Assembly: GCA_963776725.1 (NCBI GenBank)
Contig: CAVZOE010000018.1
Coordinates: forward strand, 443,474 to 507,473
DNA length: 64,000 bases
From: an uncultured Candidatus Rokubacteria bacterium
GTDB lineage: Bacteria; Methylomirabilota; Methylomirabilia; Rokubacteriales; CSP1-6
Direction: 5' to 3'
Shown: positions 29,583 through 41,975 of the stretch, piece by piece
How the letters are laid out: every line of letters starts with the position of its first letter
Position numbering within the stretch: position 1 is the first letter of the stretch
Position numbers and translations under genes: made by a program
Notes under the pieces: model-generated
The model's database searches: none
What the model was told of the DNA's origin: nothing
What the model saw: the letters and a program-made list of their open reading frames with translations, nothing else

Positions 29583-29796
29583 GCCGCCGGCACGGCGGGC
29601 GGTGCGCCGCGGTGCCACGAAGTGGTCTCCCGCGTGACTTTGTGGGAAGTCCACTTCCCTCGTCTTCGACCCACGGCCGCCGGCCAGAAAAGCGTTGTGT
29701 CCTGCCTACATCTTTGGCGATGATCGGAGGACGCGCCTGGTGGCCGGTCCGTACCCCGACGATCATCGCGTGCTTGAGTCATGGAGGGCTGAGCCG

Positions 29797-30861
29797 ATGA
29801 ACTTCGAATCTCCACTCGCGCTGGCGTACCGGACGCCGCTCGAGGATTCGTTCATCGGCATCTCGGCGGCGCTCAGCACCGAGCTGAGCGTGGAGGCCGT
29901 GCTCGACCACATCCTGGAGCAGGCGCGCCTGTTCACCCGGGCCGAGGCGGGCACCATCTTCCTGGTGGACAACGACCACCTGCGATTCGCGGTGGTGCAG
30001 AACGAGCCCCTGACCGCGCGCTTCGGACCTCGCGAGCTGCGCCGGCGGCTTCAGTCCTGGCCGCTGCCGCTGAGCCAGCCGAGCCTGGCGACGCACGTCG
30101 CGCTGACCGGCGCCACGCTGAACGTCGAGGACGCCTACGCCAACCACCTGCTGCGGCCGCTCTTCGATCGCGAGGTGGATGCGCGCAACGAGTATCAGAC
30201 CCGGTCGCTGCTGGCGGTGCCGCTGTGCACGCCGGCGGGCAACGTCATCGGCGTCATGGAGCTGATCAACGCCCAGCGGTCCGCCAACGTCGTCGTGCCC
30301 TTCGCGCCCGAGTGCGAGCCGCTGGCGCGGGCCTTCGCCTCGCTGGCGGCGGTGGCCGTGCACCGCTCGATCCTCGACGAGACCACGTTCAAGGACACGC
30401 TGACCGACCTGTACAACCGCCGGTACCTGGGGCTGCGGCTCGAGGAGGAGGCCGGCCGCCACAAGCGCTTCGGGCATCCGGTGTCGGTGGTCTCGGTGGA
30501 TCTCGACGATTTCGATCGCGTGAACCGCCGGGCGGGGCAGCCGGGCGGCGACGCGGTGCTGCGCGAGATCGGCGTCCTGCTGCGGAAGAACACGCGGAAG
30601 TTCACGGTGGTGGCCCGCGATCGCGGCGACGATTTCACGATCGTCCTGTCGAACACCACGCGCGCTGGCGCCACGGTCTACGCCGAGCGCATTCGACAGA
30701 TCATCGCTCGCCATCGCTTCGAGCACGGCACGCTCACGGCCAGCCTCGGCGTGGCGTCGCTGCCCGAGAGCGTCGGCGCCTCCGAGGAGCTCATCACCGG
30801 CGCCTACCAGTCGGTGGCGGAAGCCAAGCGGGACGGTGGTAACCGCGTCGGCGTCCTTTGA
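29797..30861 (+). CDS. GAF domain - GGDEF domain protein with degenerate active site (RGDDF)
   Basis: N-terminal GAF-like region. DTLTDLYNRRYL begins the GGDEF domain, and the signature reads ARDRGDDF instead of GG(D/E)EF. Confidence 0.85.
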   Translation: MNFESPLALAYRTPLEDSFIGISAALSTELSVEAVLDHILEQARLFTRAEAGTIFLVDNDHLRFAVVQNEPLTARFGPRELRRRLQSWPLPLSQPSLATHVALTGATLNVEDAYANHLLRPLFDREVDARNEYQTRSLLAVPLCTPAGNVIGVMELINAQRSANVVVPFAPECEPLARAFASLAAVAVHRSILDETTFKDTLTDLYNRRYLGLRLEEEAGRHKRFGHPVSVVSVDLDDFDRVNRRAGQPGGDAVLREIGVLLRKNTRKFTVVARDRGDDFTIVLSNTTRAGATVYAERIRQIIARHRFEHGTLTASLGVASLPESVGASEELITGAYQSVAEAKRDGGNRVGVL

Positions 30862-30891: not shown

Positions 30892-32059
30892 TTGAGCGCC
30901 CTTCGGCCGCTGCGCGGCGAATACATCCTGCCGCTGGCCATGTTCTTCGGCTCGTTCTCCTGGTCGTTCGTCTACGTGAGCCTGCCCTTCCACATCCAGA
31001 AGATCTCCACGCTGGACGAGGTGTCGACCCTGCGCTGGACCGGCTGGATCCTGGGCATCTCGCCGCTGGCCACCGTGGTCACCGCGCCGCTGGCTGGGAC
31101 GGATCGGCGGGCGCAGAAATCCCAAGACGGCGTTCGAGATCATCCAGTATCTACAGGGGGCGGCGTTCTTCGCCATGGCGATGGCGCGCACGCTGCCCGA
31201 GATCTTCGTCTCCCGACTCCTGGTCGGACTGATGGGGGCGGCTTCCACGTTCGCCTTCATCAGCGCGGGTCGGTCCGACGATCCAGGTGAGGTGCGCCGT
31301 CAGGTGGCGACCATGCAGTCGGCCATGACCGTCGGCGGGGTGATCGGCCCCCTGTGCGGCGCCATCGCGGCCGCCCGGCTGGGCTTCCGCTGGTCGTTCG
31401 TGGCCGGCGGCCTGGTGCTGCTCGGCTGCGGCGCGCTGGTGCACTGGGGCGTGCCGGGCGGTGAGGCCACGGCACCGCGTGCGGTGCCGGCGCATGCTCG
31501 ACAGTGGCGGGAGGTGATCCTCGTGTCGCTCCTGGTGCTGGGTGGCTCCACGCAGATCTTCTTCCTGACCTCGATCCTGCCGCAGGTGATGGCCGCCCTC
31601 GGCGTGGTCGCCGAGCAGACCCTGGAGATCGGCGGCATCATCATCTTCGCCTCGGGCGCCGCCGCCGCCCTCGGCTCGCTGGTCGCTCCGCGCCTGGCCG
31701 AGGTCCTGCCGGAGCGTCGGCTGGTCGCCGCGCTGTTCGTCGGCTCCTCGCTGAGCGTCGCCGCGCTGGCGGTGGCCCCCGGCGTGTGGAGCTACGGGGC
31801 CCTGCGCTTTCTGCAGGTGCTCTTCATCGCGCCCGTGTTTCCCATCGTCGTCGCGCGAATCGCGCAGACCGCGGGCGGCGAGGCGATCGGTGTGATCAAC
31901 GCGGCGCGGATCGGCGCCTCGTTCATCGGACCCGTGATGGCGACCTCGCTGCTGGCGGCCGGCTCGCCGGTGGCGCTCTACGTGCTCCTGGGCGCCATCG
32001 GCCTCGCCTGCCTGCCCGTGTCGGGGATGCGGGCCCACGTCCCGGCGGCCCGGCGATGA
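30892..32059 (+). CDS. MFS transporter, frame interrupted near 31097
   Basis: The N-terminal ORF (TTG 30892) reads ...VVTAPLAG. The continuation RIGGRRNPKTAFEIIQYLQGAAFFAMAMA... is in the +1 frame (extra G in GGG). Hydrophobic throughout. Confidence 0.75.
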
Positions 32060-33138
32060 GCCGCCCGCTCGTCGACATCCGTCTGGAGGCGCTGAGTACG
32101 CGGGGCGGCAAGCCGCCCGGACTCGACAGCATCTCGGTCCACGTCCGCTACGGTGAGTTCTTCACCTTCCTGGGCCCACCGCACTCGGGCAAGACCGACG
32201 TGCTCCAGGCGGTGGCGGGCTTCATGCCCCCGAGCCAGGGCCGGATTCTCGTGGACGGTCAGGACATCGGCGGCCTGCCGCCCGGCCGGCGATCGGTGGG
32301 CTACGTGTTCCAGGAGGGCGCGCTCTGGCCGCACATGACCGCCGTGCAGCACGTGGCCTTCGGTCTGGAGCAGCAGGGGATGTCGGCCGAAGACATCGCC
32401 CAGCGAGTGGCCGTGGTGGGCCAGCGCCTGGAGCTGACCGATCGCGCCGCGCGCCCGCCGGCGATGAGCCTCACCGAGCGGCGTCGACTGGCGCTCGCCC
32501 GCGCGCTGGCGGTGGAGCCGCGCATCCTGCTGCTCGACGAGCCGCTGGCCCATCTCGATCCGCTCGCCCGCAAGACGCTGCGGCTCGAGCTGGCCCGACT
32601 GCACCGCGACCTCGCGGTGACGACCATCCACGTGACGCGTGATGCTGCCGACGCGCTGGCGCTGTCGGACCGTCTCGCGGTGCTGCACGGTGGACGCGTG
32701 CAGCAGATCGGCGAGCCGGCCGACGTCTACCAGCATCCGGTGAGTCGCGCGGTGGCCGAGGCGCTCGGCCCCGCCAACTTCCTGCCGGTCCGCGTCGTCG
32801 AGGTCCGCGACCTCGGCGTCGTCGTCGAGACCGAGGGCGGCCACCGGGTGCCGGTGGCCGGCATCGGTACCTGGCGCATGGGGAGCCGAGGGCTGCTGGT
32901 TCTCCGCCCCGAGCTGCTCGTGCTCACGGACGCCGGCACGGCCCGCGGCCCCGGGATCCCGGGCACGGTGACCCTGCGAGTCTTCGAGGGCGCACGCCAC
33001 GTCTACGAGGTCGACATCGGAGCCGGGCACCTGGTCCGGGTCGAAGCGCCCGGCGCGCTCGGCGACCGCCTCTTCCGCCTCGGCGACCGCGTCCGCATCT
33101 CCACCAGCAGCGACACCGTCGTCATCGTGCCTCAATGA
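32056..33138 (+). CDS. ABC-type ATPase with degenerate signature and H-loop motifs
   Basis: ATGA overlap with the MFS stop. Walker A GPPHSGKT, Q-loop and Walker B LLLDEP are present. The LSGGQ position reads MSLTE, and the H-loop reads HVTRD (Arg where His is expected). Confidence 0.8.
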   Translation: MSRPLVDIRLEALSTRGGKPPGLDSISVHVRYGEFFTFLGPPHSGKTDVLQAVAGFMPPSQGRILVDGQDIGGLPPGRRSVGYVFQEGALWPHMTAVQHVAFGLEQQGMSAEDIAQRVAVVGQRLELTDRAARPPAMSLTERRRLALARALAVEPRILLLDEPLAHLDPLARKTLRLELARLHRDLAVTTIHVTRDAADALALSDRLAVLHGGRVQQIGEPADVYQHPVSRAVAEALGPANFLPVRVVEVRDLGVVVETEGGHRVPVAGIGTWRMGSRGLLVLRPELLVLTDAGTARGPGIPGTVTLRVFEGARHVYEVDIGAGHLVRVEAPGALGDRLFRLGDRVRISTSSDTVVIVPQ

Positions 33139-33140
33139 AA

Positions 33141-33166
33141 ATGGGGGGCCTCGAAGGGCCCCCCAT
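33141..33166 (+). terminator. GC-rich hairpin ATGGGGGGCC-loop-GGCCCCCCAT directly after stop codon
   Basis: 10-bp perfect stem 3 nt after TGA 33136-33138. No U-tract. Confidence 0.5.
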
Positions 33167-33388
33167 GCCCCCCACGCTGCGCGCCCCGGCGGAGCCGTGG
33201 CGCTTCGCGAGCGAGTCCCATGCGGGGCCACAAAAGCGCTATGCAGAGTCCGGGACGCTCGGAGCGAAGAGCGATGCTGAAGGCCGGGACGTCCCGAGCG
33301 CTGGGGTAGGTGGAGTCACAGCACGCCAACCTCGCCTGAACCAGAAGGGCGCCTCGGCTCTGCCGGGGCGCCCTGAATGGCCGGGGGG

Positions 33389-33415
33389 ATGGGGGGCCAT
33401 TTCGTGGCCCTCCAT
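33389..33415 (-). terminator. GC-rich hairpin ATGGGGGGCCA-TTTCG-TGGCCCTCCAT next to the phosphodiesterase stop
   Basis: 11-bp stem with one mismatch, 3 nt from the stop of the minus-strand gene. It shares the ATGGGGGGCC core with 33141-33166. Confidence 0.45.
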
Positions 33416-33417
33416 CC

Positions 33418-34182
33418 TCACAACACGTAGGTCTTGTCTTGCTCCAGCATGGTGATGCGGCTGCCGCTGACCTCGGCGAGCTCCTCACCGATCTCATCGT
33501 AGAACTGCGGCTTCACGTGGAAAATCAGCACCGGCACGTCGGGCGGTAGCTTGGGGAGCTCGCGCCGGATCAGCTCGGGCGTCATGTGCCGGGCGATCTT
33601 GGCCAGGCCCTCGAGCCGGTTGGGGAACGCGCACTCGAGGATGATCGCGCCCAGCCCGTGCACGCCGCGGGCTGCCTGCCACAGCGCCTCCGTGGGCCCG
33701 GTGTCGCCGGAGTAGACCATGCCGCTCACGCCGTCCTGAACGATGAAGCCGCTGGTGGGCACGGTATGAGTGACCGCGACTGGCGTCACCATCAGGTTGC
33801 CGATCGGCTGCTCGACGTCCTCCGCCAGCTCGCGAAACCTCAGGACCGGAGCGTCGACGGTGGGCAGCTTGGTGAAATCGGGCCAGACCGTGTCGTTGAA
33901 GATCGAGCTGCGCAGCGCCTTGACCACCGGCTCGAGGCTGGCGATGGTCAGCGGCTTGTTCACCTCCATCAGCGCCAGGGTCTCGGTGAGGTACGCCAGG
34001 CCGGCCACGTGATCGAGGTGCGAGTGGGAGACCAGCGCGTGGTCGATCTGGACTTGCTCGGTGCTCGAGAGCGCGGCCCCGACGGTGCCGCCGTCGATCA
34101 GGAGGGAATCGTTGATCAGGAAGGCGGACGGCCTTTGAGCGAGTCCCTCGGCTCCGTAGGCGCCGAGCACTCGAATCTTCAT
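33418..34182 (-). CDS. class II 3',5'-cyclic-nucleotide phosphodiesterase (MBL fold)
   Basis: 254 aa with an HSHLDHVAGL signature (HxHLDH), typical of class II cAMP phosphodiesterases. Confidence 0.8.
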   Translation of the reverse strand: MKIRVLGAYGAEGLAQRPSAFLINDSLLIDGGTVGAALSSTEQVQIDHALVSHSHLDHVAGLAYLTETLALMEVNKPLTIASLEPVVKALRSSIFNDTVWPDFTKLPTVDAPVLRFRELAEDVEQPIGNLMVTPVAVTHTVPTSGFIVQDGVSGMVYSGDTGPTEALWQAARGVHGLGAIILECAFPNRLEGLAKIARHMTPELIRRELPKLPPDVPVLIFHVKPQFYDEIGEELAEVSGSRITMLEQDKTYVL

Positions 34183-34204
34183 TGTGAGGCGATACTAGCA
34201 TACA

Positions 34205-36286
34205 TTGGACGGGATGACCGGCGGCCGCGGGCTCGCCCTCGTCACCCGGTACGTCGGTGGCCTGGTTTCGGCCATCGTCGTGGTGGCCCTGGTCTTTCTC
34301 GGCGTGCTGGAGCCCCTCGAGCACTGGTCGCTGTCCCGCTTCTTCGAGGTCCGCGGCGCCCGCATCCCCGTCGCGCCGGTGGTGATCGTCAGCATCGACC
34401 AGCCTTCGATCATCGAGCTCAACGAGCAGTGGCCCTTCCCGCGAGCGATGCACGCCCGGTTGCTGCGCAAACTGGCGGAGGCCAAGCCGCTGGCCATCGG
34501 GGTCGACCTCATCTTCGACACGCCCTCCTCGCGAGGTCCCGCGGACGACGCGGCGCTGGGTGAGGCGATCGCCCGGGCCGGCAACGTCGTCCTCGCCGCC
34601 GCGCCGGTGATCTACGTCAGCCCTGGCCTCACCCGGGTGGACCCGAACCTGCCGATCCCCGTCATTCGCCGCGGCGCGGCCGGAATCGGCGCGATCAACG
34701 TGATCGCCGACACCGACAGCCAGATCCGGCGGGCGCCGCTGCGCGTCGCCGCCGGCGACGAGACACTGCCGTCCATCGACGCGGTCCTGCTGCGGGTGGC
34801 CGCCCGGCGCGGGCCCATCTCGGCCACGCTCCCGACCGTCGACGAGGTACTCATCAACTTCAACGGGCCGCCGCGCACCTTCCCGTGGATCGCCTACGAC
34901 AAGGTGCTCAGCGGCGACTTCACCCCGGAAGTGTTCCGCGACAAGATCGTCCTGATCGGCCCGACCAGCGAGGTGATGCACGACGTCTTCCCCACCGTCT
35001 ACGCGACGGGCGGGACCATGCCCGGCGTGGAGATCCACGCCAACATCCTGGACACCTTCGTCCGCAACGGCCGGCTCCGCGAGATTCCCCGCGGTATCTC
35101 CACCGCGGTGGCGGTGGCGGCCGCGCTGGTCGGCGCCGCGCTGGTGCTGAAGCTGCACCCGATGCGGGGGCTGGCCACCGGCCTGCTGCTGTGGTTCGTC
35201 TTCACGATCATCGCCTACCTCGGCTTCCTGTATTTCAACGCCTGGATGCGCGGGATGGCCGGCACCCTGGCCCTGGCGCTGGGCTACGGCGTGACCGCGC
35301 TGCAGAGCTTCGTGCGGGCGCAGCAGGAGCGACGGCGGCTGTCGCAGTTCTTCTCGCCGGAAGTGCTGCGCGAGGTCGTACGCCATCAGGACGACGGCAG
35401 CCTGGCCTCGAGCCGACGCCTGGTGACGGTCCTGTTCTCCGACATCCGCGGCTTCACGGCGCTCTCGGAGAAGCTGCCGCCGGAGGACGTGGCGGAGATG
35501 CTGCGCGACTACCTCACCGCCATGACCGAGATCGTGTTCGATCACGGGGGCACGGTGGACAAGTACATCGGCGACTGCGTGATGGCGCTCTACAACGTGC
35601 CGTTCGAGGATCCCGACCACGCGCTCAAGGCCGTGCGCACCGCGCTCGATCTGCAGGAGCGCACGCTGGAGGTATCGGATCGCTGGGAGGCGCGGCTGGG
35701 CGCGCCGCTGCGCAACGGCGTCGGGATCAACACCGGCGAAGCGGTCGTCGGCACCATGGGCTCGCGGCAGCGTCTGGAGTACACCGCCATCGGCGACACC
35801 GTGAATCTGGCCTCGCGGCTGGAAGCCCTCACCAAGGAGTACAACGTCCCCATCCTCATCAGCGAGTACACACACCAGCTCGTCGAGCATGAGCTGCACG
35901 GTCGCGAGCTGGGCGAGGTCACCGTCAAGGGCAAGACCCAGGCGGTGAAGATCTTTGCGCTGATGCCGGCCGATCTGCGCAAGCACCCGCGCGCGGTGGT
36001 GGAGGCCACGCCCACCGTGCACGTCACCGCCGGCGGACAGACGGTCACCGTGCGAGCCGTGGACGTCAGCGAGGGCGGCATGCAGATCTCCGGCGTGCCG
36101 GCCGAGTGGCGCCCGGGCACGCGCGTGCAGATCCGCTGCGAGGGCGGTCTGCTGGCGGTGCCGCTCTTCGCCGAGGCGGCGGTGGCCTGGCGGCGCGGCG
36201 ATCGCGCCGGCCTGGCCTTCACCGGACTGGCCGCCGACGTGGCGCCCGCAGTGGCCGACTACGTCTCACGCCGTGGTGGTCGCTGA
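34205..36286 (+). CDS. CHASE2 sensor - class III adenylate cyclase - PilZ domain fusion protein
   Basis: N-terminal CHASE2-like periplasmic region plus TM segments. The cyclase core has VLFSDIRGFT, KYIGDCVMA, EYTAIGDTVNLASRLE. The C-terminal approx. 106 aa (35966-36283) carry RKHPR and DVSEGG, the RxxxR / DxSxxG PilZ motifs. Confidence 0.85.
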   Translation: MDGMTGGRGLALVTRYVGGLVSAIVVVALVFLGVLEPLEHWSLSRFFEVRGARIPVAPVVIVSIDQPSIIELNEQWPFPRAMHARLLRKLAEAKPLAIGVDLIFDTPSSRGPADDAALGEAIARAGNVVLAAAPVIYVSPGLTRVDPNLPIPVIRRGAAGIGAINVIADTDSQIRRAPLRVAAGDETLPSIDAVLLRVAARRGPISATLPTVDEVLINFNGPPRTFPWIAYDKVLSGDFTPEVFRDKIVLIGPTSEVMHDVFPTVYATGGTMPGVEIHANILDTFVRNGRLREIPRGISTAVAVAAALVGAALVLKLHPMRGLATGLLLWFVFTIIAYLGFLYFNAWMRGMAGTLALALGYGVTALQSFVRAQQERRRLSQFFSPEVLREVVRHQDDGSLASSRRLVTVLFSDIRGFTALSEKLPPEDVAEMLRDYLTAMTEIVFDHGGTVDKYIGDCVMALYNVPFEDPDHALKAVRTALDLQERTLEVSDRWEARLGAPLRNGVGINTGEAVVGTMGSRQRLEYTAIGDTVNLASRLEALTKEYNVPILISEYTHQLVEHELHGRELGEVTVKGKTQAVKIFALMPADLRKHPRAVVEATPTVHVTAGGQTVTVRAVDVSEGGMQISGVPAEWRPGTRVQIRCEGGLLAVPLFAEAAVAWRRGDRAGLAFTGLAADVAPAVADYVSRRGGR

Positions 36287-36349
36287 GTTGCCGGCCCCCG
36301 TGGGTTGTGCTAGAACTCGCTTGATCGAACGACGCGAGCACGGAGGCGC

Positions 36350-37018
36350 ATGAGCGCGGATCCCTTCGACTATCCAATCATGGCGCGGGCGCTGATCATC
36401 GGCGACAAGGACACCGTCGCGCGCAAGACGCGCGAAGGGTTGGACCTGGCCATGGACCCCAAGGACCTCATCTTCAAGGGGTTGATTCCGGGGATGGACG
36501 TGGTGGGCGAGAAGTTCCGGCGCAACGAGTACTACGTGCCGCAGGTGCTGCTGTCCGCCCGGGCCATGTACGCCGGCCTGGACCTGCTCAAGCCACTCAT
36601 CACCGCCGCCGCCAACGCCTCCGACTATTTCGGCACCGTCGTGATCGGTACCGCCCAGGGTGACCTGCACGACATCGGCAAGAACCTGGTGGCGATGATG
36701 CTGGAGGGCGCCGGCTTCAAGGTCTTCAACCTGGGCCGCGACGTGGCGCCGGAGAAGTTCGTGGCGGCGGTGGAGGAGCACTCGGCCAACATCGTCGGCA
36801 TCTCGGCGCTGATGACGACCACCATGCCCGCCATGAAGCGGACCATCGACGCCCTGACCAAGGCCGGCCTGCGCGAGCGCGTGAAGGTCATGATCGGCGG
36901 CGCGCCGGTGAGCCAGGCGTTCGCCGACGAGATCGGCGCCGACGGCTATGCCAAGGACTCGACGCTGGCGGTGGTGAAGGCCAAGCAGCTGGTGGGCGTT
37001 GCCGTGGTGGCCACGTGA
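36350..37018 (+). CDS. corrinoid (B12)-binding protein
   Basis: B12-binding cap region plus GDLHDIGKN (DxHxxG), SALMTTT and GGAP motifs. Confidence 0.88.
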   Translation: MSADPFDYPIMARALIIGDKDTVARKTREGLDLAMDPKDLIFKGLIPGMDVVGEKFRRNEYYVPQVLLSARAMYAGLDLLKPLITAAANASDYFGTVVIGTAQGDLHDIGKNLVAMMLEGAGFKVFNLGRDVAPEKFVAAVEEHSANIVGISALMTTTMPAMKRTIDALTKAGLRERVKVMIGGAPVSQAFADEIGADGYAKDSTLAVVKAKQLVGVAVVAT

Positions 37019-37932
37019 AAGCGCGCGGCTGGGAGGTCGTCGAGCGGGTCCGCGCCGGCCAGACGCTGGTCTTCGACGGTGGCTACGGCACGATGCTCTT
37101 CGCCGCCGGTCTCCTCAACGGCGCCTGCCCCGAGGTGTGGAACGACACGCACGCCGAGGTGGTGGCCGGGATCCATCGTGGCTACTTCGAGGCCGGCAGC
37201 GACATCGTCGAGACCAACACCTTCGGCGGCACCCGGCTGAAGCTGGACGAGTACGCGATCGGCGATCGCACCCGCGAGCTCAACGTCAAGGGCGCGCGAC
37301 TGGCCAGAGCGGTGGCCCCGGCGGGCGGCTGGGTCGCCGGCTCCATCGGTCCGACGAGCCGCCTGCCACTCGACTACGCGCTCGACAACGGGGTGACCGA
37401 CGAGCAGTACGAGGAAACGTTTCGCGAGCAGGCCGAGGCGCTGGCCGAGGGCGGCGTGGACCTGTTCGCGGTCGAGACCATGATGTTCCCGCAGGAGGCG
37501 AACGCCGCCATCCGGGCGTGCAAGGCGGTGGCCGACCTGCCGGTGATGGCGACGATGTTCTTCCAGTACGAGGAAGGCAACGACCGCGACCGAACCATGT
37601 GGGGAGAGAGCGCGGGCGAGGTCGCCAAGAGCCTGCTGGCGGCCGGCGCCGACGTGGTGGGCATGAACTGCGGGCGCGGCCCCGACCGCGCGATCGTGAT
37701 CATCCGCGAGATGCGCGCGGTCACCGACGCGCCACTGGTGGCCTATCCGAATGCCGGCCTGCCCATCACCACCGGCGACAACGTACGGTACGAGCTGGAC
37801 CCCGAGCCGATGGCGCGCGAGTACCCGGCGCTGCTGGAGGCGGGCTGCAACATCGTGGGCGCCTGCTGCGGCTCCAACCCCGAGCACATCCGTCTGATCG
37901 CCGAGGTCGTTCGCCGCCGACGCAGCACGTGA
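37015..37932 (+). CDS. homocysteine S-methyltransferase-domain protein (MetH N-terminal module-like)
   Basis: 4-nt overlap with the upstream stop. FDGGYGT, ETNTFG, VGMNCG and GACCGSNPEHI (Zn/Hcy-binding Cys pattern) are present. Confidence 0.85.
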   Translation: MKARGWEVVERVRAGQTLVFDGGYGTMLFAAGLLNGACPEVWNDTHAEVVAGIHRGYFEAGSDIVETNTFGGTRLKLDEYAIGDRTRELNVKGARLARAVAPAGGWVAGSIGPTSRLPLDYALDNGVTDEQYEETFREQAEALAEGGVDLFAVETMMFPQEANAAIRACKAVADLPVMATMFFQYEEGNDRDRTMWGESAGEVAKSLLAAGADVVGMNCGRGPDRAIVIIREMRAVTDAPLVAYPNAGLPITTGDNVRYELDPEPMAREYPALLEAGCNIVGACCGSNPEHIRLIAEVVRRRRST

Positions 37933-38645
37933 GCCTGCCCCGGGCGCTGCAGGTCCTCACCGACCTGCCGCTGGCGATCGATCCCGACGAGGTCCTGCGC
38001 TTTCAGGGCTACAAGAAGGGGCGTGACGTCGCGACCCCCGACGTGCGCGCGCTCCTGGAGGAGGCGCTGGCGGAGGGCCGACGACTCATGGCGCCGCGTG
38101 CCGTGGCCCGCTGGGCGCCGGTGGCGCGCGTGGATGCCCACACGCTGCAGATCGAGGGTGAGACGCTGACGATCCCGCGGATCGGCGCCTTGTGGGGACC
38201 CGTCAGCGACGTGGCCGCCGTGGTGTGCACGATCGGTGAGGCGCTGGAGCAGCGGGTCGCCGAGCTGTGGGACGCGCGAGAATTGCCGCTGGCCTCGATG
38301 CTGGACAGCGTGGGCTCCGGGGCGGTGGAGAGCCTGGCCGAGCACGTGAACGATCTGCTGTGCCAGCAAGGACTTCCTGGCCTTCGCGTGACGAACCGCA
38401 TCAGCCCCGGCTACGCTGACTGGGACGTGGCCGAGCAGCCGAAGCTCTTCCGCCTTGGGCCCGCCGACGCGATCGGCGTGTCGCTGAACACGGCCTGCGT
38501 CATGACGCCGGGCAAGTCGATCTCGCTCCTGGTCGGCGCCGGACGGCAGGCCCGGGTGGACCACTACTTCACCCAGTGCGCCCGGTGCTGGATGCGGGAT
38601 TGCGCGTACCGCCGCGCCCCCGCCCGCGCCACGGTTCATCGCTGA
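37929..38645 (+). CDS. methionine synthase activation-domain-like protein
   Basis: GTGA overlap with the upstream stop. RISPGYADWDVAEQPKLF...GVSLNTACVMTPGKSIS resembles stand-alone proteins annotated as B12-dependent methionine synthase activation domain. Confidence 0.7.
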   Translation: MSLPRALQVLTDLPLAIDPDEVLRFQGYKKGRDVATPDVRALLEEALAEGRRLMAPRAVARWAPVARVDAHTLQIEGETLTIPRIGALWGPVSDVAAVVCTIGEALEQRVAELWDARELPLASMLDSVGSGAVESLAEHVNDLLCQQGLPGLRVTNRISPGYADWDVAEQPKLFRLGPADAIGVSLNTACVMTPGKSISLLVGAGRQARVDHYFTQCARCWMRDCAYRRAPARATVHR

Positions 38646-38739
38646 GCGTTCCGTTCTCCGTAAGGTTCTGTGCTAGTCTCGCCGCGCACATTCCACCCTC
38701 ACCGGCGAGGCGCGTGTGCCTCGCCATGCTGGAGGCCCC

Positions 38740-39192
38740 ATGGCGACACTGCTGATCAACGGCAAGTCCCACACGGTCGACGCGGATCCGGGCACTCCCT
38801 TGCTCTGGGTGATCCGTGAGCGGTTACAGCTGACCGGCACGAAGTTCGGCTGCGGGGTCGCGCAGTGTGGCGCCTGCACGGTGCACCTCGACGGCCAGGC
38901 CGTGCGCTCGTGCCAGACCACCGTGGCCCAGGCGGCGGGCAAGAAGATCACGACGATCGAGGGCCTGGACCCCAACGGGCGGCATCCGCTGCAGGTGGCG
39001 TGGATCGCTGAGCAGGTCCCGCAGTGCGGCTATTGCCAGTCCGGCCAGCTCATGCAGGCGGCCGCGCTGCTGGCCAAGAACCCCAACCCGAGCGACGCCG
39101 ACATCGTGACGGCGATGTCCGGCAACATCTGCCGGTGCGCGACGTATCCGCGGATCAAGCGCGCCATCAAGCGCGCGGCGCAGGGGGTGTGA
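38740..39192 (+). CDS. (2Fe-2S)-binding small subunit of a molybdopterin oxidoreductase (IorA/aldehyde oxidase type)
   Basis: GGAGG lies before ATG 38740. [18 protein letters not shown] and NICRCATY cluster motifs. Confidence 0.9.
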
Positions 39193-39194
39193 TC

Positions 39195-41369
39195 ATGGCC
39201 ACCAAGCTCACTCGCCGCGCCTTCCTGACCACGACCGCCGTCGCCGGTGTCGGCCTCACCATCCGCTTCCCGCTCACCGGCGGGCCCACCGACGCCTCCG
39301 CCGCGGCCGCGTGGGACCCCAACACCGCGCTGACGATGACGCCGGACGGCATTGTCACCGTGCACATCACCAAGGCCGAGATGGGACAGGGCGTGGGCAC
39401 GGCGCTGGCCCAGATCGTGGCCGAAGAGCTCGAGGTGGAGTGGAAGGACGTCCGCATCGACTACCCGATCGCCGACCCGAAGTTCGGCCTCATGCTCACC
39501 GGTGGCAGCTGGTCGGTGAACTGGACCTTCGACACGCTGTCGCGGGCGGGTGCCGCCGCGCGCCTGGCGCTGATCGACGCGGCCGCTCAATACTGGAAGG
39601 TCAACGCCGCCGACTGCGTGGCCGAGCGCGGGATCGTGCGTCATCTGCCGACCGGCCGCTCGATCCGCTACGGCGACCTGGTCGCGAAGGTGCCGATCAC
39701 CAAGACCTTCAGCGAGGACGATCTCAAGAAGATCACGCTGAAGAAGCCGACCGACTACAAGGTCGTGGGGCAGTGGATCCCGCGCCTGGACATCCCCGAG
39801 AAGACGAACGGCAAGGCCAAGTTCGGGATCGACACGTTCATGCCGAACATGGTCTACGCCAAGGTGGCGTACCCGCCGACCCGCGAGGGCGGCAAGGCCA
39901 CGGCCGTCGACGACAGCGCGGCGAAGAAGGTGAAGGGCTACGTGGCCACCGTCAACCTGCCGCAGCTCGTCGCGGTGGTCGCGACCTCCTATGAGGCGGC
40001 GGTGAAGGCACGCGATGCGCTCAAGGTCACGTGGGACCCGGGTCCCAACGCCAACGTCAGCACCGAGTCGATCTTCGCCAGCTTCGACAAGGCCAAGGAC
40101 GATCCCGGCGTGGCGGCGTGGCACGAACAGGGCGACGTCAAGGGCGCGATGGGCGGCTCGGCCAAGCAGCACGACGCGACCTTCACGACCGACTACGTCG
40201 CGCACATGCAGATGGAGCCGATGAACTGCGTGGCCCATCTCGACAACGGCGTCTATCACCTCTATACCGGCAGCCAGTTCCAGACCTTCGCGGTCGGCGC
40301 GCTGGCGGCCAACCTCGGGACCGACGCCAAGAACATCCGGCTGCATCAGACCTACCTGGGCGGCGGGTTCGGCCGCCGGCTCGAGCCCGACATCATGGTG
40401 GAGACCGCGCTGATTGCCCGCGAGACCAAGCGACCGGTCAAGCTGATCCGCTCGCGCGAGGAGGACATCCGGCGCGACTTCTATCGCTCGGCCACGCTGC
40501 AGGAGATGAAGGCCGGTCTGGGCAGCGACGGCAAGATCGTGGCCTGGGAGAACACGCTGATCGCCTCGCATCCCGGCAAGCGGTGGGGGCCCGACTTCGT
40601 CGACAAGAAGGGCCTCGACCAGTTCGCGCTCAACGGCGCCGACCACGTGTACGACATTCCCAACCAGATGGTGCGGGCGGTGCCGGTGGAGACCGGCATC
40701 TCGGTCGGCTATGTCCGGGCGGTCGCGCCCAACTACACGTTCTTCGCGGTCGAGACGTTCATGGACGAGCTGGCGAAGATGGCCGGCAAGGATCCGCTGG
40801 AGTTCCGGCTGTCGATGCTGGGCAGCGCGCCGCGGCTGGCCACCGTCCTCAAGCTGGTGACCCAGAAGGCCAACTGGGGCTCGCCGTTGCCAGCCAACAC
40901 GGGCCGCGGCCTGGCCTGCGTCAGTGCGCAGGAGAAGAAGACGCCGACCTGGACCGCCTCGGTGGTGCAGGCCAACGTCGACCCGGCCACCGGCGTCGTC
41001 AAGATCGAGAAGATCGTGTGCGCGGTCGACTGCGGCATCGTCGTCAATCCGGACGGAGCGCGGGCCCAGATCGAGGGCTCCATCCTCTTCGGCATCAGCA
41101 ACGCGCTCAAGGAGCGCGGCACCATCGCCAACGGCGCCCTGGTCCAGTCGAACTTCCACGACTACCAGGTGCTCCGGATGAACGAGGTGCCCGACATCGA
41201 GGTCTATCTGGTCCCGTCCACCGAGTACCCCACGGGCCTCGGCGAGCCGGGCACGACCACGATCGCCCCGGCGCTCAGCAACGCCATCTTCGCGGCCACG
41301 GGGGCCCGGGTGCGCCACGTCCCGCTCATGCCCGACAAGGTCCTCGCCGCCATCCGCGCCAAGGCCTGA
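39195..41369 (+). CDS. molybdopterin-binding large subunit (IorB/xanthine dehydrogenase family), Tat signal
   Basis: TRRAFLTTTAVAGVGL twin-arginine signal. 724 aa with aldehyde oxidase/XDH-like regions (MGQGVGTALAQIVAEEL, GGGFGRR). Confidence 0.88.
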   Translation: MATKLTRRAFLTTTAVAGVGLTIRFPLTGGPTDASAAAAWDPNTALTMTPDGIVTVHITKAEMGQGVGTALAQIVAEELEVEWKDVRIDYPIADPKFGLMLTGGSWSVNWTFDTLSRAGAAARLALIDAAAQYWKVNAADCVAERGIVRHLPTGRSIRYGDLVAKVPITKTFSEDDLKKITLKKPTDYKVVGQWIPRLDIPEKTNGKAKFGIDTFMPNMVYAKVAYPPTREGGKATAVDDSAAKKVKGYVATVNLPQLVAVVATSYEAAVKARDALKVTWDPGPNANVSTESIFASFDKAKDDPGVAAWHEQGDVKGAMGGSAKQHDATFTTDYVAHMQMEPMNCVAHLDNGVYHLYTGSQFQTFAVGALAANLGTDAKNIRLHQTYLGGGFGRRLEPDIMVETALIARETKRPVKLIRSREEDIRRDFYRSATLQEMKAGLGSDGKIVAWENTLIASHPGKRWGPDFVDKKGLDQFALNGADHVYDIPNQMVRAVPVETGISVGYVRAVAPNYTFFAVETFMDELAKMAGKDPLEFRLSMLGSAPRLATVLKLVTQKANWGSPLPANTGRGLACVSAQEKKTPTWTASVVQANVDPATGVVKIEKIVCAVDCGIVVNPDGARAQIEGSILFGISNALKERGTIANGALVQSNFHDYQVLRMNEVPDIEVYLVPSTEYPTGLGEPGTTTIAPALSNAIFAATGARVRHVPLMPDKVLAAIRAKA

Positions 41370-41441: not shown

Positions 41442-41975
41442 ATGCGGTTTGTGCCGGCAGGCAACGTCGTGCTCGTCGGGTTCATGGGGGCAGGCAAGTC
41501 GGTCTGCGGGCGCCTGCTCGCGCGCCGGCTGGGCCGCTGCTTCGTCGAGACCGACGACGTCATCGTGGCCCGCGACGGCCGGAGTATCCCCGAGATCTTC
41601 CGGCAGGACGGCGAGCCGACCTTTCGCCGCCTGGAGGTCGAGGCGCTCGAGGCCCTGCGCCTCAAGGCCGACGACGTCATCGCGACCGGTGGCGGACTGC
41701 CGTGCCACGAGGGACGCATGGACGTGCTGCGCGAGCTGGGCACGGTGGTGTGGCTCCGCGGCGAGCTCGACGAGGTGCTGGCCCGCGCCCGGCGCAGCGG
41801 GAACCGGCCGATGCTCGACGGGCGGAGCCCGGAGGAGATCGCCGCGCTCTACCGTGGCCGCGAGGCGTTCTATGCGCAGGCCCACGTCACCGTGGACACG
41901 GCGGGGCTCGGCATCGACCAGGTCGTGGCGCGGATCCTGGCCGCATTGCGAGAGCGGCATGCCGCGCGCGTGTAG
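41442..41975 (+). CDS. aroK: shikimate kinase
   Basis: GFMGAGKS P-loop and ATGGG, 177 aa. Confidence 0.88.
   Translation: MRFVPAGNVVLVGFMGAGKSVCGRLLARRLGRCFVETDDVIVARDGRSIPEIFRQDGEPTFRRLEVEALEALRLKADDVIATGGGLPCHEGRMDVLRELGTVVWLRGELDEVLARARRSGNRPMLDGRSPEEIAALYRGREAFYAQAHVTVDTAGLGIDQVVARILAALRERHAARV

What the first reader, a model, noticed from the sequence alone, without database searches (positions are those of the whole stretch)
33418..36286. CHASE2-adenylate cyclase-PilZ fusion divergently paired with a class II cNMP phosphodiesterase
The 693-aa protein joins an extracytoplasmic CHASE2 sensor and a class III cyclase. The cyclase has all catalytic positions in place: metal Asp in FSDIRGF and IGDCVMA, the Lys/Asp purine-selecting pair of adenylate cyclases, and Asn/Arg in TVNLASR. 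A C-terminal PilZ domain (35966-36283) carries intact RKHPR and DVSEGG c-di-GMP-binding motifs. This architecture implies direct c-di-GMP control of cAMP synthesis. The divergently transcribed neighbour, 22 nt away, is a class II cyclic-nucleotide phosphodiesterase (HSHLDH). Synthesis and degradation of the nucleotide are therefore encoded as one locus. A GAF-GGDEF-like protein lies 3.3 kb upstream.
Basis: partly seen in the sequence, partly recalled or inferred. Interest (0 to 1): 0.7.

Follow-up and report, generated by a model that had tools for sequence, protein, structure and literature searches.

The report
Adenylate cyclase with c-di-GMP-sensing tail
A membrane adenylate cyclase from an uncultured soil/groundwater bacterium (Methylomirabilota/"Rokubacteria") carries a built-in receptor domain for the messenger c-di-GMP and sits back-to-back with a cyclic-nucleotide-degrading enzyme, which suggests (untested) that c-di-GMP directly tunes cAMP production.

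Summary
33418-34182(-) encodes a 254-aa metallo-beta-lactamase-fold cyclic-nucleotide phosphodiesterase (PDE). 34205/34214-36286(+) encodes a CHASE2 + class III cyclase + PilZ protein, with all three domains above Pfam gathering scores.

Three corrections:
- The purine-selecting pair is Lys/Thr (class IIIb, like P. aeruginosa CyaB), not Lys/Asp.
- The conserved start is the ATG at 34214, giving 690 aa and a 31-nt gap rather than 22.
- The upstream GAF-GGDEF has a conserved degenerate RGDDF motif and is not consistently linked.

The fusion is a populated family: 119 of the 120 best homologues have all three domains, nearly all from Methylomirabilota. Catalytic residues and the PilZ RxxxR and DxSxxG motifs are invariant, or nearly so, in 121 sequences. 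They persist in a distant clade whose tail is only about 22% identical.

PDE pairing recurs in 10 other loci, around an invariant 11-12-nt intergenic core. Other copies pair with TPR/FecR genes instead. Two syntenic orthologues lack PilZ, so the tail is a separable module.

I found no paper describing a cyclase-PilZ fusion. A 2024 review lists only transcriptional and effector-level c-di-GMP/cAMP cross-talk.

Direct c-di-GMP control of the cyclase is a well-founded inference, but its sign and reality are untested. Verdict: new variant of a known kind, moderately high interest.

The parts
33418..34182 (-). 254-aa MBL-fold cyclic-nucleotide phosphodiesterase (class II / atypical class II), signature SHSHLDH
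   Evidence: ORF. Pfam Lactamase_B_2 52.5 bits and PDEase_II 48 bits. The only significant PDB sequence hit is yeast PDE1, 4ojv. Foldseek best matches are YhfI and Apyc1. Metal ligands H53, H55, D57, H58, H139, D160 and H222 are invariant in 35 homologues. NCBI names relatives 3',5'-cyclic-nucleotide phosphodiesterase.
34183..34213 (.). 31-nt divergent intergenic region with an invariant core ATACTAGCATA(C) at 34192-34203. It contains back-to-back -10-like hexamers: TAGCAT on the + strand, and TGC-TAGTAT on the - strand.
   Evidence: Alignment of 11 syntenic loci: the core columns are invariant or at least 90% conserved, while the flanking intergenic bases vary. The motif is unique in the window. 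No canonical -35/-10 pair was found. The promoter reading is my inference.
34214..36286 (+). CHASE2-class IIIb adenylate cyclase-PilZ gene (690 aa from the conserved ATG; the mechanical ORF starts at TTG 34205, 693 aa)
34271..35131 (+). CHASE2 extracytoplasmic sensor domain (aa 23-309 in 693-aa numbering), preceded by an N-terminal helix and followed by three long helices (about aa 296-380 in 693-aa numbering; AF2 helices 293-313, 316-341 and 348-377 in 690-aa numbering)
   Evidence: Pfam CHASE2 184 bits. AF2 model has pLDDT 85-97 over this region, with helices at 2-29, 293-313, 316-341 and 348-377 in 690-aa numbering.
35132..35419 (+). Membrane helices and the juxtamembrane linker to the cyclase, including the invariant FFSP-V---V segment (a cyclase-transducer-like element)
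   Evidence: Invariant columns F379, F380, S381, P382, V384 and V388 in alignment A1. The transducer-element assignment is from my own knowledge, not tested.
35420..35956 (+). Class III nucleotidyl cyclase catalytic domain (aa 406-584): metal Asp413 and Asp457, Lys453 and Thr527 for adenine selection, Asn534 and Arg538
   Evidence: Pfam 93 bits. Best PDB match is CyaB 3r5g, E = 1.7e-37. All six residues are invariant in 121 sequences.
35975..36238 (+). PilZ domain (aa 591-678): RxxxR = RKHPR (nt 35978-35992), DxSxxG = DVSEGG (nt 36062-36079)
   Evidence: Pfam PilZ 41.5 bits, E = 1.8e-10. R592, R596, D620 and G625 are invariant in 121 sequences. The same positions are invariant across a distant clade about 22% identical in the tail. 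AF2 beta-barrel plus C-terminal helix at pLDDT 82-88. The junction with the cyclase has no gaps in 121 sequences.
32056..33138 (+). ABC-transporter ATPase (ABC_tran + TOBE_2), convergent with the PDE; a conserved neighbour in the type A locus
   Evidence: Pfam. 71-86% identical orthologues lie in the same position in L001, L004, L005, L006, L008, L014, L015 and L056.
33141..33166 (-). G+C-rich hairpin with a T-run, between the convergent ABC ATPase and PDE genes (terminator-like)
   Evidence: This is a consensus match only.
29695..30861 (+). GAF-GGDEF protein with a degenerate active-site motif RGDDF; context only, link to the locus is weak
   Evidence: Pfam and NCBIfam hits. Absent from the other syntenic loci.
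36350..38645 (+). Downstream conserved block: B12-binding protein, homocysteine S-methyltransferase and a Met_synt_B12-like activation domain (split MetH-like). Syntenic with the pair but not obviously related in function.
   Evidence: Pfam. 82-92% identical in 9 loci and the same order in L056.

Best explanation
The 690-aa protein is a membrane-anchored, homodimeric class IIIb adenylate cyclase with two regulatory inputs. An N-terminal extracytoplasmic CHASE2 sensor signals through the membrane helices and juxtamembrane linker. A C-terminal canonical PilZ domain binds c-di-GMP.

The RxxxR 'arginine switch' starts only 8 residues after the last catalytic beta-strand, through a fixed-length linker containing an invariant proline. 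I therefore propose that c-di-GMP binding orders this linker, clamps the PilZ barrel against the catalytic domain, and changes the geometry of the cyclase dimer. That would change cAMP output. The sign of the effect, activation or inhibition, cannot be read from sequence.

The divergently transcribed neighbour is a binuclear-metal MBL-fold cyclic-nucleotide phosphodiesterase that removes the product. The two genes share a 31-nt control region with an invariant core, so synthesis and degradation of cAMP are expressed as one unit.

Shown here: the domain calls, the residue conservation, the synteny, the modularity of PilZ, and the taxonomic spread.

Inferred: c-di-GMP binding, the allosteric effect, cAMP as the product and as the PDE substrate, and the promoter role of the core.
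For: - All three domains score above Pfam gathering cut-offs.
- The catalytic domain is closest to CyaB (3r5g), with Lys/Thr specificity residues.
- D413, K453, D457, T527, N534 and R538 are invariant in 121 sequences, so this is an active enzyme rather than a pseudo-cyclase.
- PilZ R592, R596, D620 and G625 are invariant in the same set, although the PilZ domain is the least conserved domain overall (53% mean identity against 75% for the cyclase).
- The same four positions, plus a few core residues, are the only invariant columns when a distant clade (22-23% identical tails) is added.
- The junction has a fixed length with no indels in 121 sequences.
- AF2 predicts a confident beta-barrel plus C-terminal helix for the tail.
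- Two syntenic orthologues (L012, L014) end just after the cyclase domain. The tail is thus a separable add-on, as expected for a regulatory module.
- PDE: Pfam PDEase_II and Lactamase_B_2 hits, all seven MBL metal ligands invariant, a sequence hit to yeast PDE1, and fold hits to YhfI and Apyc1, which are cNMP phosphodiesterases.
- The motif SHSHLDH fits both the typical and the atypical class II signatures defined in PMC9293780.
- The divergent PDE/cyclase arrangement recurs in 10 further loci at 57-65% cyclase identity, around an invariant intergenic core.
Against: - There is no biochemical evidence of any kind.
- The AF2 model is a monomer with pTM 0.54, so it says nothing reliable about PilZ-cyclase contacts.
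- The PilZ tail has only a borderline match to any solved PilZ (8u0i, E = 0.052).
- In 27 of 121 homologues the Ser of DxSxxG is Gly.
- A large share of family members (type B: L002/L054, L003/L053, L007, L010, L011, L013, L016) have no PDE nearby.
- PilZ-less orthologues keep the PDE. The PDE link therefore says nothing about c-di-GMP.
- The PDE model is mediocre (pLDDT 68). Its fold matches also include RNase Z and PhnP, so substrate specificity is open.
- The only nearby GGDEF is degenerate.
Confidence: 0.6

Rival explanations
1. The PilZ tail binds c-di-GMP but does not alter catalysis. Instead it controls where the cyclase sits or which partners it binds, for example the TPR and FecR proteins encoded next to the type B copies. 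In that case c-di-GMP would shape local rather than total cAMP signalling.
For: The ligand motifs are conserved. Many copies are encoded directly upstream of a TPR protein, with touching or overlapping reading frames, and next to a FecR-domain protein. This suggests protein complexes. Other invariant PilZ positions lie outside the two ligand motifs (RCEGG, WR), which could form a protein interface.
Against: The very short, fixed-length, indel-free tether between the last catalytic strand and RxxxR fits an in-cis allosteric coupling better than a freely swinging adaptor. The window's own copy has no TPR or FecR partner.
Confidence: 0.2
2. The PilZ tail is a ligand-blind structural or adaptor domain, like the non-binding PilZ proteins of Xanthomonas. 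c-di-GMP would then play no part.
For: PilZ domains that do not bind c-di-GMP exist (discussed in 10.1101/814665). Ser is replaced by Gly in DxSxxG in 27 of 121 homologues. Two orthologues do without the tail.
Against: Non-binding PilZ domains have lost the RxxxR loop. Here both Arg residues, the Asp and the Gly are invariant in 121 sequences and in a clade whose tail is only about 22% identical, where little else is conserved.
Confidence: 0.07
3. The neighbouring MBL-fold hydrolase is not a dedicated cAMP phosphodiesterase. It might be an RNase Z/BN-like nuclease, a 2',3'-cNMP or broad cNMP hydrolase, or another phosphodiesterase. Its adjacency to the cyclase would then be inherited gene order without functional coupling.
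For: JGI annotates most relatives as ribonuclease BN. NCBIfam's best hits are RNase Z models, all far below their cut-offs. Foldseek lists RNase Z, PhnP and an arylsulfatase close behind YhfI and Apyc1. The flanking ABC ATPase and MetH-like genes are just as syntenic without any obvious link. Rv1339-type enzymes are broad in specificity.
Against: PDEase_II scores twice its gathering cut-off, and the HxHLDH signature is exact. The only significant PDB sequence match is a class II cAMP PDE. NCBI's pipeline names relatives 3',5'-cyclic-nucleotide phosphodiesterase. At 254 aa the protein appears too short to carry the tRNA-binding exosite of RNase Z (my own knowledge, not tested here). The head-to-head arrangement, with an invariant shared 11-12-nt core, persists across 57-65% cyclase identity.
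Confidence: 0.2

Closest known systems
P. aeruginosa CyaB (class IIIb adenylate cyclase, PDB 3r5g) and other class IIIb cyclases
   Same: Closest solved catalytic domain (E = 1.7e-37). It has the same metal Asp pair, Lys/Thr specificity pair and Asn/Arg pair. It is also membrane-anchored with an N-terminal sensor.
   Different: CyaB has a different membrane sensor (MASE2, from my own knowledge) and no C-terminal PilZ. c-di-GMP lowers cAMP signalling in P. aeruginosa, as cited in PMC11139211; my recollection is that the route was left unresolved. In the window protein the receptor is built into the enzyme.
CHASE2-linked cyclases without PilZ
   Same: Same CHASE2 + membrane helices + class III cyclase layout. 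22 of 54 close cyclase representatives carry CHASE2. Actinomycete and other relatives match residues 8-593 only.
   Different: They end after the cyclase domain. The PilZ tail occurs only in the Methylomirabilota-centred branch and in a related clade with a reduced CHASE2-like module.
Enzymes and motors regulated in cis by a PilZ domain (BcsA cellulose synthase, Alg44, YcgR/PlzD)
   Same: Canonical PilZ with RxxxR on a flexible linker next to the partner domain, and DxSxxG on the barrel. The residue before RxxxR is I/L/V, as in the monomer-binding PlzD type (my own knowledge; residue counts).
   Different: The regulated domain here is a nucleotide cyclase that makes a different second messenger. 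I found no such case in the papers searched.
Atypical class II PDEs (M. tuberculosis Rv1339, B. subtilis YhfI, C. glutamicum CpdA) and the phage/host Apyc1 enzymes
   Same: Short MBL-fold proteins. The signature [T/S]HxHxDH is present as SHSHLDH. There is a PF12706 hit, and the best fold matches are YhfI and Apyc1. Precomputed Pfam PF23023 (Anti-Pycsar_Apyc1) hits relatives.
   Different: The window protein also carries the exact typical class II signature HxHLDH and passes PF02112, so it sits between the two groups. Activity and specificity are untested.
Typical class II PDEs (yeast PDE1 4ojv, PF02112)
   Same: HxHLDH signature. PF02112 scores 48 bits against a cut-off of 23.7. It is the only significant PDB sequence hit.
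   Different: The match covers profile positions 82-282 of 340 only. The protein is about 100 residues shorter. By fold, the predicted model ranks YhfI and Apyc1 above PDE1, which is not in the top 50.
Known c-di-GMP/cAMP cross-regulation (FleQ repressing cyaA, cAMP-CRP repressing DGC genes, CRP-BpfD interaction; cAMP-activated GAF-GGDEF Lcd1 of Leptospira)
   Same: It links the same two messenger systems.
   Different: The known links act on transcription or between effectors (PMC11139211), or run from cAMP to c-di-GMP synthesis (title of reference 68 in PMC7288161). Here the predicted link is post-translational and runs from c-di-GMP to cAMP synthesis.

Membership tests
Class III nucleotidyl cyclase, subclass IIIb adenylate cyclase | Match to the class III catalytic domain model | tested here: met
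   PF00211 93.4 bits against a cut-off of 21.9. 56 PDB cyclases matched; the best is CyaB at E = 1.7e-37.
Class III nucleotidyl cyclase, subclass IIIb adenylate cyclase | Two metal-binding Asp residues | tested here: met
   D413 (FSDIRGF) and D457 (IGDCVMA), invariant in 121 sequences.
Class III nucleotidyl cyclase, subclass IIIb adenylate cyclase | Adenine-selecting Lys, plus Thr (IIIb) rather than Asp (IIIa/c/d) at the second position | tested here: met
K453 and T527 are invariant. T527 aligns with the Thr of CyaB.
Class III nucleotidyl cyclase, subclass IIIb adenylate cyclase | Transition-state Asn and Arg | tested here: met
   N534 and R538 in TVNLASR, invariant.
Class III nucleotidyl cyclase, subclass IIIb adenylate cyclase | Homodimer that converts ATP to cAMP | not testable with these tools
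   Needs an enzyme assay.
CHASE2 sensor proteins | Match to the CHASE2 model, flanked by membrane helices | tested here: met
   PF05226 184 bits. AF2 predicts helices at 2-29 and three long helices at 293-377. Membrane topology is inferred.
Canonical (c-di-GMP-binding) PilZ domain | Match to the PilZ model above the gathering score | tested here: met
   PF07238 41.5 bits against 22.5, E = 1.8e-10. 119 of 120 homologues carry a precomputed PilZ hit.
Canonical (c-di-GMP-binding) PilZ domain | RxxxR motif on the N-terminal loop | tested here: met
   RKHPR at aa 592-596. Both Arg residues are invariant in 121 sequences and in the distant clade.
Canonical (c-di-GMP-binding) PilZ domain | [D/N]xSxxG motif | tested here: met
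   DVSEGG at aa 620-625. D and the last G are invariant. Ser is present in 94 of 121 and Gly in 27 of 121.
Canonical (c-di-GMP-binding) PilZ domain | [quoted passage not shown] | tested here: met
   AF2 predicts strands between 601 and 669 and a helix at 677-687, pLDDT 82-88. This is a prediction, not a structure.
Canonical (c-di-GMP-binding) PilZ domain | Measured c-di-GMP binding | not testable with these tools
   Needs a binding assay.
Typical class II cNMP phosphodiesterase (PF02112) | Match to PDEase_II above the gathering score, and the HxHLDH signature | tested here: met
   48 bits against 23.7, covering profile positions 82-282 of 340. HSHLDH at aa 53-58. Sequence hit to yeast PDE1, E = 8.3e-07.
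Typical class II cNMP phosphodiesterase (PF02112) | Full-length similarity and closest fold to PDE1-type enzymes | tested here: not met
   Only part of the profile matches. PDE1 (4ojv) is absent from the top 50 Foldseek hits, although the model is only moderate at pLDDT 68.
Atypical class II PDE (Rv1339/YhfI/CpdA, PF12706) | [T/S]HxHxDH metal motif, a PF12706 match, and an MBL fold close to YhfI | tested here: met
   SHSHLDH. PF12706 52.5 bits against 27. YhfI 6kns is the top Foldseek hit at E = 8.5e-11. The motif definition comes from PMC9293780.
Atypical class II PDE (Rv1339/YhfI/CpdA, PF12706) | Complete binuclear metal ligand set | tested here: met
   H53, H55, D57, H58, H139, D160 and H222 are invariant in 35 sequences. 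Assigning these as ligands follows the general MBL pattern (my own knowledge).
Atypical class II PDE (Rv1339/YhfI/CpdA, PF12706) | Hydrolysis of 3',5'-cAMP | not testable with these tools
   Needs an enzyme assay.
Active GGDEF diguanylate cyclase (for the upstream GAF-GGDEF gene) | GG(D/E)EF active-site motif | tested here: not met
   The motif reads RGDDF in the window and in the L056 orthologue. The I-site RxxD reads RKFT. The domain model itself matches at 111 bits.

The most novel reading that the evidence does not exclude
c-di-GMP binds the C-terminal PilZ of this cyclase and directly switches cAMP synthesis. That would be the first enzyme-level wire from the c-di-GMP network into the cAMP network. 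The protein would act as a two-input gate, combining an extracytoplasmic CHASE2 signal with intracellular c-di-GMP, and its output would be cleared by a co-expressed dedicated phosphodiesterase. As a 'Rosetta stone' fusion, it would also predict that free-standing PilZ proteins regulate CyaB-type cyclases in other bacteria. That could explain the c-di-GMP inhibition of cAMP-Vfr signalling in P. aeruginosa.
Probability: 0.5. Interest if true: 0.72.

Novelty: new variant of a known kind. Interest (0 to 1): 0.55.

Why it matters
cAMP and c-di-GMP are the two most studied bacterial second messengers. According to a 2024 review (PMC11139211), their known cross-regulation is almost entirely transcriptional or effector-level and is 'extremely limited' in what is understood.

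An adenylate cyclase with a built-in, strongly conserved c-di-GMP receptor is a ready-made and simple test system for direct cross-talk. It consists of one soluble fragment, one ligand and one assay. Natural PilZ-less orthologues serve as controls.

If the effect is real, it adds a new regulatory class of cyclase. It also gives a design principle for two-input signalling enzymes, and a hypothesis for how c-di-GMP suppresses cAMP signalling in pathogens such as P. aeruginosa.

The finding also shows that Methylomirabilota/Rokubacteria, abundant uncultured soil and groundwater bacteria, have expanded this family, with more than 2,000 database clusters at E <= 1e-10.

If the effect is not real, the locus is still a clean example of a cyclase/PDE gene pair with a shared control region.

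Tried and rejected
- CRP-type operator. The window's intergenic TGTGA looked like half a CRP site, but it is not conserved in the other 10 loci. Rejected.
- Canonical sigma-70 promoter. The scan found none in 33100-36500. The conserved core can only be read as -10-like hexamers, and that reading is an inference.
- Riboswitches and RNA elements. Rfam at gathering thresholds found nothing in the whole window.
- The nearby GGDEF as the c-di-GMP source. Its motif is degenerate (RGDDF), and the gene is missing from most syntenic loci. Not used as evidence.
- Separating PDE-paired (type A) from TPR/FecR-paired (type B) copies as two old paralogue clades. A neighbour-joining tree did not separate them cleanly. 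Their relationship is unresolved.
- Matching the PilZ tail to solved PilZ structures by sequence profile. The only hit was borderline (8u0i, E = 0.052).
- Using the AF2 monomer to read PilZ-cyclase contacts.
- Looking for independent cyclase-PilZ fusions among multi-stretch hits of the representative search. The batch scan found 11 PilZ carriers among the 54 scanned. That equals the 11 cyclase+PilZ-spanning hits picked, six of which were confirmed individually. The scan does not list its members.
- Literature searches for any description of a cyclase-PilZ fusion found none. The library lacks many subscription papers.

Full report
**What is there**

One is a 254-aa ORF on the minus strand (33418-34182). 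The other is a 693-aa ORF on the plus strand (34205-36286, TTG start). Third-position G+C of 0.91 and 0.93 marks both as real genes.

Pfam places three domains in the long protein, all well above their gathering scores:
- CHASE2 at residues 23-309 (184 bits)
- the class III cyclase domain at 406-584 (93 bits)
- PilZ at 591-678 (41.5 bits against a cut-off of 22.5)

The short protein hits Lactamase_B_2 (52.5 bits), PDEase_II (48 bits, cut-off 23.7) and Lactamase_B.

**Corrections to the observation**

1. Purine selection. The best solved relative of the catalytic domain is P. aeruginosa CyaB (3r5g, E = 1.7e-37). In that alignment the second purine-selecting position is Thr ('EYTAIGD' against 'DYTIIG'). 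Thr527 is invariant in 121 family members. The enzyme is therefore a class IIIb Lys/Thr adenylate cyclase, not Lys/Asp.

2. Start codon. The 99%-identical database protein is 690 aa. In 11 aligned syntenic loci the ATG equivalent to 34214 is conserved, while the TTG is not. The intergenic gap is 31 nt.

3. The upstream GAF-GGDEF gene (29695-30861). It matches the GGDEF model strongly. However, its active-site motif reads RGDDF and its I-site reads RKFT. The 66-68%-identical orthologue on contig L056 has the same RGDDF. It is a conserved but non-canonical GGDEF. It is missing from the upstream flank of L001, L005 and L015. I do not count it as part of the system.

**Is the cyclase intact, and is the PilZ a real ligand-binding PilZ?**

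I aligned the query with its 120 best homologues (58-99% identical).
- The metal-binding D413 and D457, the specificity residues K453 and T527, and the transition-state N534 and R538 are all invariant. This argues against a pseudo-enzyme.
- In the PilZ tail, both arginines of RxxxR (R592, R596) and the Asp and last Gly of DxSxxG (D620, G625) are also invariant. The Ser is Ser in 94 sequences and Gly in 27.
- This holds even though PilZ is the least conserved domain overall: 53% mean identity to the query, against 75% for the cyclase and 58% for CHASE2.

An exhaustive search of 1.84 billion cluster representatives with the cyclase+PilZ half found a second, more distant group (P0138, P0143, P0150; 40-45% identical). 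These proteins have a shortened CHASE2-like membrane module with no Pfam hit, followed by cyclase and PilZ. Their tails are only 22-23% identical to the window's. When they are aligned together, the invariant columns are the two Arg residues, the Asp and the Gly of the ligand motifs, plus five others: an Ile in the last cyclase strand and four presumably structural tail residues (G58, W82, G89, F92 of the tail alignment). That is the pattern expected if c-di-GMP binding is the selected function.

AlphaFold2 predicts a confident beta-barrel plus C-terminal helix for the tail (pLDDT 82-88). A profile of the tails finds only a borderline PDB match, to a PilZ protein (8u0i, E = 0.052). That match aligns RQYPR with RKHPR and DLSDTG with DVSEGG.

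**How the two domains are joined**

The stretch from the last catalytic strand to the arginine switch reads VK[I/V][Y/F]-[A/G]-V-L-P-x-x-[I/L/V]-R-K-H-P-R. It contains no insertion or deletion in any of the 121 sequences, and the proline is invariant. The distant clade has the same spacing.

The residue just before RxxxR is always I, L or V. From my own knowledge of PlzD versus PP4397, this goes with binding of a single c-di-GMP rather than an intercalated dimer.

In known PilZ proteins the RxxxR loop wraps around the ligand and pulls the neighbouring domain against the barrel (my own knowledge of YcgR/PlzD and BcsA). Here the neighbouring element is the beta-hairpin that carries the [K/R]-G-[K/R] motif. 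In mammalian cyclases that motif contacts the ATP phosphates (my own knowledge). A direct allosteric path is therefore plausible, but it is an inference. The sign of the effect cannot be predicted.

**Modularity**

In two syntenic loci (L012, L014) the orthologous gene ends 20-30 residues after the cyclase domain, and the usual downstream gene follows directly. No PilZ-like sequence appears in any frame. In a neighbour-joining tree these two are nested among PilZ-bearing orthologues, which suggests secondary loss. The tree has no support values. The tail is thus dispensable for a functional-looking cyclase, which fits a regulatory add-on.

**How common is the fusion?**

- The word-indexed search returned 2,099 clusters at E <= 1e-10. 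Of the 120 best, 119 carry precomputed CHASE2, cyclase and PilZ hits.
- The named sources are Methylomirabilota/Rokubacteria, with one 'Binatia'.
- In one-genome-per-species contigs, all full-length matches that include the tail are Methylomirabilota MAGs. Actinomycete, proteobacterial and other relatives stop near residue 590.
- Of 54 close cyclase representatives scanned with Pfam, 22 have CHASE2 and 11 have PilZ. The scan does not list its members. The number equals the 11 cyclase+PilZ-spanning hits picked out, six of which were confirmed individually.

The fusion therefore looks like a derived feature of one branch of CHASE2 cyclases. It is abundant within one phylum and rare elsewhere. 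This census covers only the 150 best representatives and is not exhaustive.

**The neighbour gene**

- All seven canonical MBL metal ligands (H53, H55, D57, H58, H139, D160, H222) are invariant in 35 homologues.
- The only significant PDB sequence hit is yeast PDE1, a class II cAMP phosphodiesterase.
- The AlphaFold2 model is moderate (pLDDT 68). Its best Foldseek matches are B. subtilis YhfI and the Apyc1 cyclic-nucleotide nucleases, followed by RNase Z and PhnP.
- Precomputed Pfam also tags relatives with PF23023 (Anti-Pycsar_Apyc1).
- Thomson et al. (PMC9293780) define typical class II PDEs by HxHLDH (PF02112). They define a bacterial 'atypical class II' group (Rv1339, YhfI, C. glutamicum CpdA; PF12706) by [T/S]HxHxDH, with broad cNMP specificity. 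The window protein's SHSHLDH satisfies both, and it passes both Pfam models.
- NCBI's pipeline names relatives '3',5'-cyclic-nucleotide phosphodiesterase', whereas JGI mostly says 'ribonuclease BN'.

I file it as an MBL-fold class II-type cNMP phosphodiesterase, intermediate between the two groups, with substrate untested.

**Gene context**

The arrangement ABC-ATPase(+) then PDE(-) | cyclase(+) then B12-binding, homocysteine S-methyltransferase and Met_synt_B12-like recurs in L001, L004, L005, L006, L008, L009, L012, L014, L015 and L056 (where the flanks are long enough). Cyclase identity across these loci is 57-65%. Ten further cyclase/PDE pairs in the two homologue lists share identical longest-contig lengths. 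One of these was verified directly.

Within the 31-nt gap, the core ATACTAGCATA(C) (34192-34203) is invariant or at least 90% conserved, while the bases on both sides vary. It occurs only once in the window. It can be read as two back-to-back -10-like hexamers: TAGCAT for the cyclase, and TGC-TAGTAT (an extended -10) for the PDE. That would put both transcription starts within a few bases of the start codons. This is my reading only. The consensus scan found no canonical promoter, and Rfam found nothing.

Not all family members are PDE-paired. In L002/L054, L003/L053, L007, L010, L011, L013 and L016 the gene is associated with a TPR protein and/or a FecR-domain protein instead. In L053 and L054 the TPR reading frame touches or overlaps the cyclase gene. 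The distant clade lies among glycogen-metabolism genes. The PilZ-less orthologues keep the PDE. PDE pairing and the PilZ tail are therefore independent features.

**Literature**

Searches combining PilZ with adenylate/adenylyl cyclase, CHASE2, Guanylate_cyc, CyaB or Rokubacteria found no description of a cyclase-PilZ fusion.
- The PilZ-domain survey by Galperin and Chou does not mention cyclases.
- A 2020 review lists GAF, Cache, PAS, GGDEF, EAL and a peptidase as PilZ partners, and notes 221 Pfam architectures.
- A 2024 review says c-di-GMP/cAMP cross-regulation is 'extremely limited' in what is known. [quoted passage not shown] The review cites c-di-GMP inhibition of cAMP-Vfr signalling in P. 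aeruginosa as needing further experiments.

The library lacks many subscription papers, so absence of a report is not proof.

**Verdict**

The sequence-level finding is real and reproducible across hundreds of genomes. The mechanistic reading, direct c-di-GMP control of a class IIIb adenylate cyclase with a co-encoded PDE, is the best-supported explanation. I put my confidence in it at about 0.6, and it rests entirely on architecture and conservation.

It is a new variant of known kinds: known domains in an undescribed combination that implies a new wire between two messenger systems. It is not a new kind of system. I rate the interest at 0.55. The hypothesis is easily testable and would matter to the second-messenger field. 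However, it is a domain-fusion inference in uncultured organisms, and the proteins themselves are already in databases under generic names.

Noticed in passing
window 30892-32059: The MFS transporter gene upstream appears frameshifted. Its N-terminal part (30892-31290) and C-terminal part (31175-32059) are in different frames in the window but in a single frame in L001, L005 and L015. This is either a pseudogene or a sequencing/assembly indel near 31100-31175.
   Followed up: partly
window 29695-30861; L056 3775-4854: The GAF-GGDEF protein has RGDDF in place of GG(D/E)EF and RKFT in place of the RxxD I-site. The same degenerate motif is conserved in a 66-68%-identical orthologue. It may be a non-catalytic GGDEF or one with altered function.
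   Followed up: partly
window 34192-34203: A 12-nt motif, ATACTAGCATAC, is invariant or nearly so in 11 loci whose surrounding intergenic bases vary. It is unique in the window and can be read as two overlapping divergent -10-like hexamers, implying near-leaderless transcripts for both genes. It could equally be an operator for an unknown regulator.
   Followed up: partly
L053 8001-12975; L054 8001-11689; also L007, L010, L011, L013, L016: A second conserved context for CHASE2-cyclase-PilZ genes has a TPR protein of about 525 aa immediately downstream (reading frames touching or overlapping), and often a FecR-domain protein nearby. No PDE is present. This may be a CHASE2-associated periplasmic or membrane complex.
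   Followed up: partly
L012 1031-2807; L014 2010-3825: Syntenic orthologues of the cyclase end shortly after the catalytic domain, so they lack PilZ but keep the divergent PDE. They are natural deletion controls for testing the role of the tail.
   Followed up: yes
window 36350-38645: A split methionine-synthase-like cluster (B12-binding protein, homocysteine S-methyltransferase, Met_synt_B12-like activation domain) lies directly downstream, 63 nt after the cyclase stop. It is very highly conserved (82-92%) and always syntenic. It is unclear whether it is co-transcribed with the cyclase.
   Followed up: no
window 33141-33166: A 10-bp G+C-rich hairpin with a T-run lies between the convergent ABC ATPase and PDE genes. 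It is probably a terminator. The 280-nt gap (33139-33417) is otherwise unexplained.
   Followed up: no
L057 6001-7659: The distant cyclase-PilZ clade, with a reduced CHASE2-like N-terminus, is encoded among glycogen-metabolism genes (GT5 glycogen synthase, alpha-amylase, GlgC-like). This may hint at a different physiological output.
   Followed up: no
window 38716-41369: A [2Fe-2S] subunit and a molybdopterin-binding subunit of a xanthine-dehydrogenase/aldehyde-oxidase-type enzyme, followed by shikimate kinase (41442-41975). These are ordinary metabolic genes unrelated to the finding.
   Followed up: no
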